UHGV virus genome: UHGV-0397187
DNA: 41,531 bases
DNA from: a virus
Reading direction: 5' to 3' (one strand)
The notes beneath the pieces were generated by a model. The model saw nothing but the letters and a program-made list of their open reading frames with translations. It had not been told where the DNA came from and did not search any database. Position numbers and translations under genes: made by a program. Of the stretch, positions 34,872 to 36,613 are shown one piece after another (within the stretch, counting starts at the first letter, position 1; every line of letters begins with the position of its first letter).

Positions 34872-35912
34872 ATGTCGAAAAACTGGATGCGTCACTTTGA
34901 ATTATTGCTTGTTGATGATAAGGGCGACGGGATAAAAATTTCTGAGCTTAAAGTCACTTTCAATATTCAGAAAATGCCTGCGACCATATTTAATGGATTC
35001 GTTGGAAATTTTAAGGTTTATAACCTGTCTCCTGCCACTCAGAACCGGATTATGCAGAAGGAGTTTTCGCGTATACAGGTTATTGCCGGATACAAGGGGC
35101 AACCGGATGCGGAAGGTAATTATCCTGATGAAAACGTTGGTATGATATTCAATGGAGATATCCGTTTTACTGTCACTGGTAAAGATAATGCCACAGACAG
35201 TTGGATCATGTTGCAGTGTATTGACAGCTGGGAAGGCCACCTGAACGCAAGTGTGAAAACCACAGTGGCAGCTGGCTGGAAGTACAGAGATCTTTTCAGT
35301 CTGGGTATGAAATCATTCGAACCATATGGCATCGAATCCGGCGCAGTTCCTGACATGCCTGAAACGGTATTTCCCCGGGGGCGCGTTGTTTATCAAAACA
35401 CATCAAGGTTGATGAATCATATCGCAGGGCAGTGTAAGGCTAACTGGTGGTATGAAAATAATCTGGTAAATATTGTTCCTGAAGATAAATATATTGGTGT
35501 TGCTACGGTGTTGAATGCTAACACCGGGCTTATCGGTATGCCACAGCAGACGATGGGAGCTGGTGTAAATGTCAGATGTCTGATTAATCCAAATATTAAG
35601 CTCGGTGGGCTTATTCGTCTGGATCAGGCATCTGTATACCGTGCCTCTTTGAGTAATGACCAGGTAGCGAAATCGCCAGCACGACTGGATGAGTCTGAAA
35701 GCGACGGTAATCTCTACGTTAACGGTCTGCCAGGCATGTCACAGCCTGCCAGCATTAATACTGACGGTGATTACATTGTGGGCAGCATTGATTATACTGG
35801 CGACACCCGAGGGCAGGCGTGGTATATGGACCTGCTTTGCCTGGCTAAAGGGAGTAAAAGTTTACTCACTCCTGATACGATAGCGAAAATAAGTGGGGTA
35901 CCAAATGCTTAA
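34872..35912 (+). CDS. baseplate hub protein
   Basis: 346-aa ORF after the tape measure region, before spike/gpW/gpJ-like genes. Confidence 0.5.
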   Translation: MSKNWMRHFELLLVDDKGDGIKISELKVTFNIQKMPATIFNGFVGNFKVYNLSPATQNRIMQKEFSRIQVIAGYKGQPDAEGNYPDENVGMIFNGDIRFTVTGKDNATDSWIMLQCIDSWEGHLNASVKTTVAAGWKYRDLFSLGMKSFEPYGIESGAVPDMPETVFPRGRVVYQNTSRLMNHIAGQCKANWWYENNLVNIVPEDKYIGVATVLNANTGLIGMPQQTMGAGVNVRCLINPNIKLGGLIRLDQASVYRASLSNDQVAKSPARLDESESDGNLYVNGLPGMSQPASINTDGDYIVGSIDYTGDTRGQAWYMDLLCLAKGSKSLLTPDTIAKISGVPNA

Positions 35913-36147
35913 ATGGATCTTATTACTGGTATATTTTGTGACTTTGTCTTCTGTGGCTGCGGTAACATGCACCACTTCAAATACAGGAACAACTTACTGT
36001 ACTGGTACAGACAGTAGTGGTTCTACAGTTAAAACAGAATCTTATACAACCAATACAGGTACTACGTATACCACAGGAACGATTAATGGGAGTGCAGTAC
36101 ATCGTGAATGCCAGACGACCAATACTGGCACAACGTACTGTAATTAA
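35905..36147 (+). CDS. small secreted Thr/Gly/Cys-repeat protein (AT-rich moron)
   Basis: MLKWILLLVYFVTLSSVAAV signal peptide, then three repeats T(S/T)NTGTTY(C/T); visibly AT-rich. Confidence 0.5.
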   Translation: MLKWILLLVYFVTLSSVAAVTCTTSNTGTTYCTGTDSSGSTVKTESYTTNTGTTYTTGTINGSAVHRECQTTNTGTTYCN

Positions 36148-36182
36148 TTTTTTTAAGAAATCAGCTATAAGAGACATTTGTA

Positions 36183-36524
36183 ATGAAGAAAATATTCCTT
36201 CTCGCAGTGTTGACTCCAACAATTTGTGTAGGTGGAACGCTGAATGATTTTTTTGGACTGCACACCTCACTGGCTGATAACTACATCATCAAGAGAGAGA
36301 TCACAAATAGGGCTGTTTCTAATGCGGCTATGGACGCTGTATCTAATGGTCGTGAGGCGGATTTTGGTGATGAGTTAATGAAAGAACATGGTGATAGTTA
36401 TGGTGAAATAGCTCTGCGTCAACTCGCTTCCGAGTGCGGTTATTCTTTTTCCGATAGTGGCCAATCTCTTACGATTCTAAAAAAAGAAGAATGTAGATTG
36501 GTGCTATCTGAAAATAAGAAATGA
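36183..36524 (+). CDS. secreted protein of unknown function (AT-rich moron)
   Basis: MKKIFLLAVLTPTICVGG signal-peptide-like N-terminus; AT-rich; own terminator downstream. Confidence 0.5.
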   Translation: MKKIFLLAVLTPTICVGGTLNDFFGLHTSLADNYIIKREITNRAVSNAAMDAVSNGREADFGDELMKEHGDSYGEIALRQLASECGYSFSDSGQSLTILKKEECRLVLSENKK

Positions 36525-36587
36525 GTTCGCTAAATTAACTTTCCACGGTAATTGCTTCTATCACCATGGAAAGAAAACTAGCTACAT

Positions 36588-36613
36588 AAAACCCGCCTTC
36601 GAGTGGGTTTTTT
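36588..36613 (+). terminator. intrinsic terminator after the moron cassette
   Basis: acccgc-cttcga-gtgggt (one G-U pair) followed by tttttgctttc. Confidence 0.6.

What the first reader, a model, noticed from the sequence alone, without database searches (positions are those of the whole stretch)
35905..36613. AT-rich two-gene secreted-protein cassette inserted inside the baseplate gene cluster
Between the baseplate hub (ends 35912) and the gpV-like gene (36633) lie two compositionally deviant genes, each with an N-terminal signal-peptide-like segment, followed by a dedicated terminator. The first encodes three T(S/T)NTGTTY(C/T) repeats with spaced cysteines. The second is a roughly 113-aa secreted-type protein. 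Tail modules are normally uninterrupted, so this looks like cargo. Candidate roles are lysogenic-conversion, surface-modification or exclusion factors.
Basis: partly seen in the sequence, partly recalled or inferred. Interest (0 to 1): 0.7.

Follow-up and report, generated by a model that had tools for sequence, protein, structure and literature searches.

The report
Secreted-protein cargo in a prophage tail slot
Two small, AT-rich genes for exported proteins of unknown function sit in a swap-prone slot between the baseplate hub and spike genes of a lambdoid E. coli prophage; this is a familiar kind of accessory cargo ("moron"), although both proteins belong to rare, uncharacterised families.

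Summary
ORF1 (35905-36147, 80 aa) and ORF2 (36183-36524, 113 aa) are real genes with Sec-type signal peptides. Their GC is 39-40%, against 45-53% in the flanking genes.

They are cargo, not baseplate parts:
- The hub|spike slot varies among 81 related loci.
- The slot is empty in two distant phages with the same baseplate genes.
- Breakpoints lie inside the hub 3' end (~35852) and at ~36550, where a remnant of a different cassette survives.

The slot has two tiers:
- The first gene is always exported. It is ORF1 family, or one of three unrelated families.
- Later genes vary: ORF2 family, HEPN proteins, a YafO toxin, small membrane proteins, or nothing.

ORF1 and ORF2 assort independently. The "dedicated" terminator is backbone: it precedes the spike gene in 99 of 103 loci, whatever the cargo.

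Mature ORF1 is a 61-aa, 38%-Thr mini-protein, modelled as three beta-hairpins, with four invariant Cys. ORF2 is a helical protein with two invariant Cys. Its relatives also sit between the K and I tail-tip genes of a siphophage. Neither has a Pfam, PADLOC or PDB relative.

Function is inferred: envelope-acting, most plausibly blocking phage entry. This is a new member of a known kind and of moderate interest.

The parts
34872..35912 (+). Baseplate hub gene (346 aa); left flank of the slot
   Evidence: Pfam E217_GP41 (E 1.5e-7) and PHROG 196 'baseplate hub' (E 3e-79).
35852..35912 (+). Left recombination boundary. The last ~20 hub codons belong to the swapped, AT-rich segment (GC 0.37, GC3 0.20).
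   Evidence: The alignment with prophages carrying other cassettes is 100% identical up to ~35851 and then diverges. The hub C-terminal tail is hypervariable in all lineages and shows no motif specific to the type of gene that follows.
35905..36147 (+). ORF1, 80 aa. Signal peptide 35905-35961 (MLKWILLLVYFVTLSSVAA|V). Mature 61-aa Thr-rich protein 35962-36144 with 3 x T[ST]NTGTTY and 4 invariant Cys (pairs spaced C-x9-C).
   Evidence: dN/dS 0.21. AlphaFold2 model of the mature part: pLDDT 89, six strands forming three hairpins. No Pfam, PHROG, NCBIfam, PADLOC or PDB match. In 17 loci with the gene it always directly follows the hub gene.
36183..36524 (+). ORF2, 113 aa. Signal peptide 36183-36236 (MKKIFLLAVLTPTICVGG|T). 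Mature 95-aa acidic helical protein with 2 invariant Cys (C85, C104).
36539..36588 (+). Imperfect hairpin (36539-36573) and a footprint of an earlier cassette. 36550-36588 is homologous to the last codons plus 3' UTR of the HEPN gene of the A41-type cassette. This marks the right recombination boundary (~36550).
   Evidence: 88% identity over 36550-36618 to strains carrying the HEPN-type cassette. The alignment shows ...GAATTGCTTCCATAG (E L L P stop) of that gene matching the window sequence. Fold.
36588..36617 (+). Intrinsic-terminator-like hairpin (AAAACCCGCC-TTCGAG-TGGGTTTT) plus T-run. It is a conserved backbone element, not part of the cassette.
   Evidence: The same ACCCGCC-loop-GGCGGGT-T6 element ends 19 nt before the spike ATG in 99 of 103 loci (52 distinct upstream sequences), irrespective of cargo.
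36633..37385 (+). Membrane-puncturing spike gene (250 aa); right flank of the slot. Its GGAGG ribosome-binding site lies at about 36622-36626.
   Evidence: Pfam spike N-terminal domain (family name masked in the output), E 1.3e-44, and Apex motif.

Best explanation
The finding is two independent accessory (moron-type) genes in a conserved cargo slot between the hub and spike genes. The host is a lambdoid prophage with an E217/Pam3-type contractile tail.

Shown:
- The segment ~35852-36550 was brought in by recombination. It replaced a different cassette.
- The slot has two tiers. The first gene starts at or within a few nt of the hub stop codon and always encodes an exported protein from one of four unrelated families. 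ORF1 belongs to the rarest family seen in E. coli.
- The following position holds variable cargo. ORF2 is one recurrent option.
- Both products have cleavable Sec-type signal peptides and invariant paired cysteines, as expected of periplasmic disulfide-bonded proteins.

Inferred:
- ORF1 (a three-beta-hairpin, Thr-rich 6.3-kDa protein) and ORF2 (a 10.5-kDa helical protein) act separately in the cell envelope.
- Most plausibly they block entry of superinfecting phages, in the lysogen or in the late-infected cell. They could do so by masking an envelope component, or by interfering with the incoming tail tip (spike, hub, or tape measure with its lytic transglycosylase domain). Known analogues are T4 Sp, Cor/Llp, TP-J34 Ltp and HK97 gp15.
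- The Q-like antiterminator would let late transcription read through the conserved terminator. Any Q-independent transcription of the slot would stop before the spike gene.
For: Cargo status:
- The flanking hub and spike DNA occurs in 318 of 5426 complete E. coli genomes. The cassette occurs in only 7.
- 81 related loci show 22 slot architectures, with hub-to-spike gaps of 346-2047 nt.
- The slot is empty in Salmonella phage birk and Acinetobacter phage BUCTT20, which have the same hub and spike genes.
- E217 gp42, the gene between hub gp41 and tip gp43, is not among the virion proteins built (PMC10329688).
- Every slot gene family is lower in GC than the flanks.
- Breakpoints and a remnant of the previous cassette are visible.

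Export:
- Family alignments show the signal-peptide pattern.
- Profile-profile matches between the first-position families cover only the first ~25 residues, i.e. the signal peptides.
- The first gene is exported in 81 of 81 loci: phrog_3443 family 63, ORF1 family 7, a 241-aa lipoprotein 7, a ~150-aa secreted protein 4.

Independence of the two genes:
- ORF1 occurs alone or with six other partners.
- ORF2-family genes follow three different first genes.
- ORF2-family genes also sit between the lambda-type K and I tail-tip genes of a siphophage, followed by a terminator-like hairpin.

Defence-flavoured neighbourhood:
- Other second-position cargo includes HEPN proteins (PADLOC HEPN_IX 1.7e-6; an Rx4H motif), a YafO toxin, and a weak match to a PycTM-like 2TM effector.

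Regulation:
- The prophage is lambdoid, with a DUF1133/Q-like gene upstream of the holin gene.

Precedent:
- Morons inside tail operons that encode exclusion proteins are known (HK97 gp15, Cor; PMC3594210).
Against: - No homologue has a known function, so the exclusion role rests on analogy only.
- No convincing sigma-70 promoter was found for ORF1 or ORF2. Matches do not exceed chance, and the one inside the hub gene is not conserved in the divergent hub group.
- ORF1 overlaps the hub stop codon, which suggests late co-expression rather than expression in the lysogen.
- The ORF2 model does not resemble T4 Spackle or any lysozyme inhibitor.
- Neither protein matches PADLOC models.
- The first position was never empty in the enterobacterial clade. 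That fits a role needed by the phage itself as well as it fits dispensable cargo.
Confidence: 0.45

Rival explanations
1. Late-cycle helper for the phage itself. The first-position exported protein (here ORF1) is made with the late tail genes. It acts in the periplasm of the dying cell. It could mask receptors or envelope debris so that progeny are not wasted (as T5 Llp does), or it could modulate lysis. It would not protect the lysogen.
For: - The ORF1 ATG overlaps the hub stop codon by 8 nt. Most first-position genes start within a few nt of the hub stop.
- No independent promoter was found.
- The first position is filled in 81 of 81 loci, by functionally replaceable but non-homologous exported proteins.
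Against: - The slot is empty in birk and BUCTT20, so nothing there is needed for this tail type as such.
- A conserved terminator right after the slot is hard to explain for purely late genes.
- Low GC and cassette exchange are typical of morons.
Confidence: 0.25
2. Lysogenic-conversion factors aimed at the bacterial host's environment and not at phages. These would be exported proteins that alter envelope properties, stress or serum resistance, or colonisation (as lambda Bor and Lom do).
For: - Both are exported, AT-rich and prophage-borne.
- Other tail-region morons have such roles (PMC3594210).
- A Mig-14 gene sits as cargo next to the tail-fibre genes of the Yokenella relative.
Against: - There is no similarity to any virulence or fitness factor in Pfam or NCBIfam.
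- The carriers come from very diverse sources: animals, food, water, and the environmental genera Hafnia and Trabulsiella.
- The remaining slot cargo is defence or toxin-antitoxin-like.
Confidence: 0.15
3. Toxin-immunity pair. ORF1 would be a Sec-exported, disulfide-stapled bacteriocin-like peptide released at lysis. ORF2 would be its periplasmic immunity protein.
For: - ORF1 is a small Thr/Gly/Ser/Asn-rich peptide with disulfides.
- It is adjacent to a second exported protein.
- ORF2-family genes follow ORF1 in several lineages.
Against: - ORF1 occurs with no partner in four lineages and with unrelated partners in others.
- ORF2-family genes occur without ORF1, behind other first genes and in siphophages.
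- There is no export or processing machinery and no bacteriocin family match.
Confidence: 0.03
4. Structural or assembly component of the baseplate, encoded in its natural place between hub and spike.
For: - The position is inside the baseplate cluster.
- ORF1 looks translationally coupled to the hub gene.
- The slot is never empty in the enterobacterial clade.
Against: - Cleavable signal peptides would send both proteins out of the cytoplasm, where tails assemble.
- Only 7 of 318 E. coli prophages with nearly identical hub and spike genes carry the cassette.
- Hub and spike genes abut in birk and BUCTT20.
- E217 gp42 is absent from the solved virion.
Confidence: 0.03

Closest known systems
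Morons of lambdoid phages, as defined by Juhala/Hendrix. [quoted passage not shown]
   Same: - Extra, AT-rich DNA between conserved late genes.
- Absent from or different in close relatives.
- Followed by a terminator.
- Lies inside a tail operon.
- Encodes small envelope-targeted proteins.
   Different: - No own promoter could be shown.
- The terminator belongs to the backbone.
- ORF1 overlaps the preceding structural gene.
- gp15 is an inner-membrane protein, whereas ORF1 and ORF2 look like soluble periplasmic proteins.
- There is no sequence similarity.
Variable hotspots of accessory and antiviral genes in temperate phages, for example the P2/P4 hotspots (Rousset et al. 2022, PMC9122126)
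   Same: - A fixed position between conserved genes.
- Many alternative cassettes are exchanged by recombination in the conserved flanks.
- The cargo includes HEPN, toxin-antitoxin and small membrane proteins.
   Different: - A different phage group and a different position (hub|spike).
- The slot has two tiers, with an obligatory exported first gene.
- A conserved terminator forms its right border.
- I found no description of this particular slot, but my literature search was limited.
Periplasmic or envelope entry-blocking proteins: T4 Sp (Spackle), T5 Llp, phi80/N15 Cor, TP-J34 Ltp
   Same: - Small exported phage proteins.
- Some are encoded next to tail or receptor-binding genes.
- ORF2 is of similar size to Sp and also helical, with a conserved Cys pair.
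   Different: - Neither protein has a lipobox, unlike Llp, Cor and Ltp.
- Function is untested.
PHROG 13007 (ORF2) and PHROG 3443 (the commonest alternative first-position gene)
   Same: ORF2 matches PHROG 13007 full-length (E 1.5e-38). The 111-aa alternative matches PHROG 3443 (E 7e-48).
   Different: Both PHROGs are annotated 'unknown function'. ORF1 matches no PHROG at all.

Membership tests
Moron (independent accessory transcription unit in a phage genome) | Extra DNA between genes that are adjacent or differently separated in related phages | tested here: met
   There are 22 slot architectures in 81 loci. The cassette is in 7 E. coli genomes, against 318 with the flanks. The slot is empty in birk and BUCTT20.
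Moron (independent accessory transcription unit in a phage genome) | Base composition differs from the surrounding genes | tested here: met
   GC 0.39-0.40 and GC3 0.30-0.33, against 0.45-0.53 and 0.44-0.61 in the flanks. This is the lowest 2% of 620-nt windows.
Moron (independent accessory transcription unit in a phage genome) | Own terminator | tested here: inconclusive
   A terminator follows the cassette. However, the same element precedes the spike gene in 99 of 103 loci regardless of cargo, so it serves the slot and not this cassette.
Moron (independent accessory transcription unit in a phage genome) | Own promoter, and expression from the repressed prophage | tested here: inconclusive
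   Consensus scans give no more sites than shuffled sequence. The hub-internal match is not conserved in the divergent hub group. Expression itself cannot be tested with these tools.
Sec/SPase I-exported proteins | Positively charged n-region, 10-15-residue hydrophobic h-region, and small residues at -3 and -1 | tested here: met
   ORF1: MLK + WILLLVYFVTLSS + VAA|V. ORF2: MKK + IFLLAVLTPTIC + VGG|T. The pattern holds in all homologues while the sequence varies. The signal part evolves faster than the mature part. This is heuristic only; no SignalP was run.
Bacterial lipoproteins (as Cor, Llp, Ltp) | Lipobox [LVI][ASTVI][GAS]C at the end of the signal peptide | tested here: not met
   In the ORF1 family the residue before the first Cys is T, E or S, and the Cys lies 3 residues after the A-x-A site. 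The Cys in the ORF2 signal peptide is not conserved.
T4 Spackle-like inhibitors of tail lysozyme | Sequence or fold similarity to Spackle | tested here: not met
   [not shown]
Known anti-phage defence systems (PADLOC-DB) | Match to a defence-protein model | tested here: not met
   There were no hits for ORF1 or ORF2 at E <= 0.1.
Baseplate or virion structural proteins of E217/Pam3-type tails | Conserved presence in phages that share the baseplate gene set | tested here: not met
   Hub and spike genes are contiguous in birk and BUCTT20. The slot content is non-homologous among close relatives. E217 gp42 was not found in the virion structure. Virion proteomics of this phage cannot be done with these tools.
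Bacteriocin plus immunity gene pair | Obligatory co-occurrence of the two genes | tested here: not met
   ORF1 occurs without ORF2 and ORF2 without ORF1 in many loci.

The most novel reading that the evidence does not exclude
The obligatory first gene of the hub|spike slot could be a family-swappable periplasmic 'tail-tip antagonist'. Each variant, including ORF1, would block membrane penetration or DNA delivery by contractile tails of this type. ORF1 is a previously undescribed mini-protein, modelled as three beta-hairpins, 38% Thr, with four invariant Cys. ORF2-family proteins would do the same for both myophage and siphophage tail tips. If so, this slot would be a large, position-defined reservoir of new superinfection-exclusion proteins and defence systems.
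Probability: 0.2. Interest if true: 0.65.

Novelty: new member of a known kind. Interest (0 to 1): 0.38.

Why it matters
If the inference is right, the hub|spike slot of these widespread enterobacterial prophages gives a simple positional rule for finding new envelope-level phage-exclusion proteins and new defence cargo. The first gene is always exported, and later genes include HEPN, toxin-antitoxin and small membrane proteins.

ORF1 would add a very small fold, probably disulfide-stapled, that would be easy to study and to engineer.

There is also an annotation point. ORF1 was left unannotated by PGAP in at least one of the genomes that carry it, although it is under purifying selection. Small exported prophage genes of this type are therefore under-counted.

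In itself the cassette is an ordinary moron of unknown function.

Tried and rejected
- Family searches. Pfam, PHROGs, NCBIfam and PADLOC gave nothing for ORF1 (only a sub-threshold signal-peptide-like DUF4969 hit). For ORF2 they gave only PHROG 13007, function unknown.
- Fold of ORF1. PDB Foldseek gave only generic beta-meander matches (E >= 0.6). The AFDB library was not available.
- ORF1 as a mimic or decoy of another protein of this phage. There was no meaningful similarity to any frame of the window.
- Homology between ORF2 and the alternative 111-aa first-position gene. None was found. Profile-profile matches among the first-position families are limited to the signal peptides.
- Functional coupling between the hub C-terminal tail and the type of gene that follows. 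The hub tail is hypervariable everywhere and has no type-specific motif.
- A conserved promoter inside the hub 3' end. It is not conserved in the divergent hub group.
- Known RNA families in 35600-36800. Nothing reached gathering scores.
- Deposited phage genomes (INPHARED). There was no DNA or protein match to ORF1, ORF2 or the siphophage ORF2 relative.
- Literature. Searches for STY1065 and for the repeat motif found nothing relevant.
- A search of genome contigs with the broad ORF2 alignment failed for lack of a conserved stretch.
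Full report
**1. The observation**

The window carries a lambdoid prophage.
- It has a lambda-type integrase at 876-1952 (minus strand), a DUF1133/Q-like gene at 16296-17102 and an S-type holin at 19072.
- Its tail genes are of the E217/PhiTE/Pam3 type: Dit-like 33913-34563, plug 34567-34869, hub 34872-35912, spike 36633-37385, sheath initiator 37385-37738, baseplate J 37738-38937 and wedge 38934-39614.

- ORF1 is 35905-36147 (80 aa). Its ATG overlaps the hub stop codon by 8 nt.
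- ORF2 is 36183-36524 (113 aa).
- ORF1 has GC 0.395 (GC3 0.30) and ORF2 has GC 0.404 (GC3 0.33). The flanking tail genes have GC 0.45-0.53.
- This is the only AT-rich stretch in the structural half of the prophage.
- The 108-nt region after ORF2 folds into two hairpins (z = -3.05). The second, at 36588-36611, is followed by a T-run and looks like an intrinsic terminator.
- No Rfam family reaches threshold here.

**2. Both ORFs are real genes for exported proteins**

ORF1 family:
- It has 9 clusters among 5.8 billion clustered proteins, 15 viral contigs, and 2 of 185,579 species-representative genomes.
- All members are from Enterobacterales: E. coli/Shigella, Yokenella, Cronobacter, Hafnia and Trabulsiella.
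- The first ~19 residues vary in sequence but stay hydrophobic and end in A-x-[ASGT].
- The mature part is conserved. It has four invariant Cys forming two C-x9-C pairs, and three TTxTGTT[Y] repeats.
- Against an 85%-identical homologue, dN/dS is about 0.21. The signal part evolves faster than the mature part.
- The residue before the first Cys is T, E or S, so this is not a lipobox.
- PGAP does not annotate ORF1 in FDAARGOS_944. Most database entries for it are partial or missing.

ORF2 family:
- It has 8 close clusters (E. coli, Shigella, Salmonella, Pantoea) and about 20 distant representative clusters.
- These share a signal peptide ending in small-x-G/A, two invariant Cys and a [ST]-[LIV]-[DN]-D-F-F...H-P-x-L motif.

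Structure models:
- AlphaFold2 models mature ORF1 (61 aa, 6.3 kDa, pI 5.4, 38% Thr) as three beta-hairpins, with pLDDT 89.
- It models mature ORF2 (95 aa, pI 4.9) as an all-helical protein, with pLDDT 85.
- Neither has a hit in Pfam, NCBIfam or PADLOC. ORF2 is PHROG 13007, function unknown.

**3. The genes are cargo in a conserved, two-tier slot**

Frequency:
- DNA of the hub and spike genes is found in 318 of 5426 complete E. coli genomes. The cassette is in only 7, and in no deposited phage genome.

Alternative contents in close relatives:
- A 111-aa secreted protein (PHROG 3443) plus a DUF4282 membrane protein.
- The same 111-aa protein plus a 266-aa and a 126-aa HEPN-like protein.
- Several others.

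Survey of 81 loci:
- The hub-to-spike gap ranges from 346 to 2047 nt, and there are 22 architectures.
- The first gene is always exported: the PHROG 3443 family (63 loci), the ORF1 family (7), a 241-aa lipoprotein with an LTSC lipobox (7), or a ~150-aa secreted protein (4).
- Profile-profile comparison matches these families only over the signal peptides, so their mature parts are unrelated.
- Later positions hold DUF4282, a HEPN gene with a 256-aa partner (PADLOC HEPN_IX, 1.7e-6), a 170-aa protein with an Rx4H motif, a YafO toxin with a partner, a weakly PycTM-like 2TM protein, DUF2335, ORF2-family genes, or nothing.
- All slot families have lower GC than the flanks.

Independence of ORF1 and ORF2:
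- In all 17 loci examined, ORF1-family genes follow the hub directly, and the hubs range from 48 to 98% identity. ORF1 occurs alone or with various partners.
- ORF2-family genes follow three different first genes.
- In 17 viral contigs of a lambda-like siphophage, a 29%-identical relative sits between the tail-tip genes K (JAB + NlpC/P60) and I, followed by a terminator-like hairpin.
- The two genes are therefore independent modules, not a functional pair.

**4. Boundaries and history**

- The alignment with other cassette types is identical up to about 35851 and then breaks. The last ~20 hub codons therefore came in with the cassette.
- That hub tail is hypervariable in every lineage. It has no motif tied to the gene that follows.
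- On the right, 36550-36618 is 88% identical to strains carrying the HEPN-type cassette. The matched stretch begins with the last codons of that HEPN gene, so a footprint of a previous occupant survives.
- The terminator is not cassette-specific. ACCCGCC-loop-GGCGGGT-T6, ending 19 nt before the spike ATG, is present in 99 of 103 loci with 52 different upstream sequences.

**5. Not a baseplate component**

- In the virulent Salmonella phage birk, and in Acinetobacter phage BUCTT20, the homologous hub and spike genes abut.
- Burkholderia phage Magia has a single reverse-strand gene there.
- In Pseudomonas phage E217, the gene between hub gp41 and tip gp43 is not among the proteins built into the virion structure (PMC10329688).
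- Together with the signal peptides, this argues strongly against a structural role.

**6. Mechanism**

Shown:
- Horizontal exchange, independent assortment of the two genes, export signals, and purifying selection.

Inferred:
- Both proteins work in the periplasm or envelope.
- The most likely role is interference with incoming phages. The grounds are:
  (a) positionally fixed but sequence-diverse exported genes fit an exclusion role, on my own knowledge;
  (b) the rest of the slot holds defence or toxin-type cargo;
  (c) precedents exist for exclusion genes inside tail operons (HK97 gp15, Cor; PMC3594210);
  (d) ORF2 relatives recur specifically in the tail-tip modules of two tail types.
- The tape measure of this phage group carries a lytic transglycosylase domain (annotations; Pfam SLT). 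A Spackle-like inhibition of it was considered, but fold comparison gave no support.

Expression is unresolved:
- No promoter beyond chance was found.
- ORF1 looks translationally coupled to the hub gene.
- The conserved terminator suggests that some Q-independent transcription of the slot must be stopped before the spike gene.
- A late-cycle helper role is therefore a serious rival.

**7. Comparison with known systems and novelty**

- In kind this is a moron/hotspot cassette, which is well known.
- What is new is modest:
  - two uncharacterised exported protein families, one of them a distinctive Thr-rich mini-protein;
  - the description of a two-tier hub|spike cargo slot with an obligatory exported first gene and a conserved terminator border.
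- I rate it a new member of a known kind, with interest about 0.38.
- The most novel reading not excluded is that the first-position proteins are swappable periplasmic antagonists of contractile-tail penetration. I give that a probability of about 0.2.

Noticed in passing
window 36588-36632; the same element in L002-L124 just upstream of each spike gene: A strong intrinsic-terminator-like hairpin (ACCCGCC-loop-GGCGGGT-T6) ends 19 nt before the spike ATG in 99 of 103 related loci, whatever cargo precedes it. Why a terminator is conserved inside the late tail operon is unexplained. It may insulate slot transcription in lysogens, with Q-mediated read-through in lytic growth.
   Followed up: partly
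window 36550-36588, compared with L002 ~4186-4225: There is a remnant of the 3' end (E-L-L-P-stop) and 3' UTR of the HEPN-like gene found in the A41-type cassette. This is a footprint showing that the present cassette replaced a different one.
   Followed up: yes
L002 3029-4200, L007 5225-6366, L010 4232-4744, L042 3479-3895, L067 677-1231 (the slot's later positions in related prophages): The same slot carries candidate defence or toxin cargo elsewhere:
- a HEPN-like protein with a ~256-aa partner (25 loci);
- a 170-aa protein with an RNNLFH (Rx4H) motif;
- a YafO-family toxin with an upstream partner;
- a 2TM protein weakly matching PycTM.
None was characterised further.
   Followed up: partly
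L092 4001-4348 (and L093-L108): An ORF2-family gene (29% identity) is inserted between the lambda-type tail-tip genes K (JAB + NlpC/P60) and I of a siphophage. It is flanked by hairpins, and the downstream one is terminator-like. The family therefore recurs in the tail-tip modules of two different tail types.
   Followed up: partly
L001 (NZ_CP065613.1), position equivalent to window 35905-36147: NCBI PGAP leaves ORF1 unannotated in this genome, and most database entries for the family are partial. Yet the ORF is conserved and under purifying selection (dN/dS ~0.2).
   Followed up: yes
L129 (NZ_CP065615.1, E. coli FDAARGOS_943): An IS1 copy sits between ORF1 and ORF2 and another lies in the hub gene. 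This copy of the prophage tail region is decaying.
   Followed up: partly
L128 666-1249 (Acinetobacter phage BUCTT20): This phage has an empty hub|spike slot. It carries instead a reverse-strand pair between the tape-measure and Dit-like genes, including a 'lysozyme inhibitor LprI family protein'. This is another exported-protein cargo inside a tail module.
   Followed up: no
window 17950-18750 and 15000-15300; also 100-700, 1200-2350 and 5900-6600: There are further AT-rich stretches (GC <= 0.42). One covers the 198-aa ORF 18137-18733, which has no Pfam match and lies between the Q-like gene and the holin gene, a classical moron position. These were not examined.
   Followed up: no
window 39596-41531: The tail-fibre region has convergent plus- and minus-strand ORFs (40312-40752 on plus; 40724-41149 and 41128-41517 on minus). 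A related phage (L009) has a DNA invertase next to inverted tail-fibre-assembly genes. This suggests an invertible host-range segment, but I did not check it.
   Followed up: no
L005 10794-11714 (Yokenella regensburgei prophage): A Mig-14 family gene lies on the reverse strand immediately after the tail-fibre assembly gene. This is another cargo site in the same phage type.
   Followed up: no
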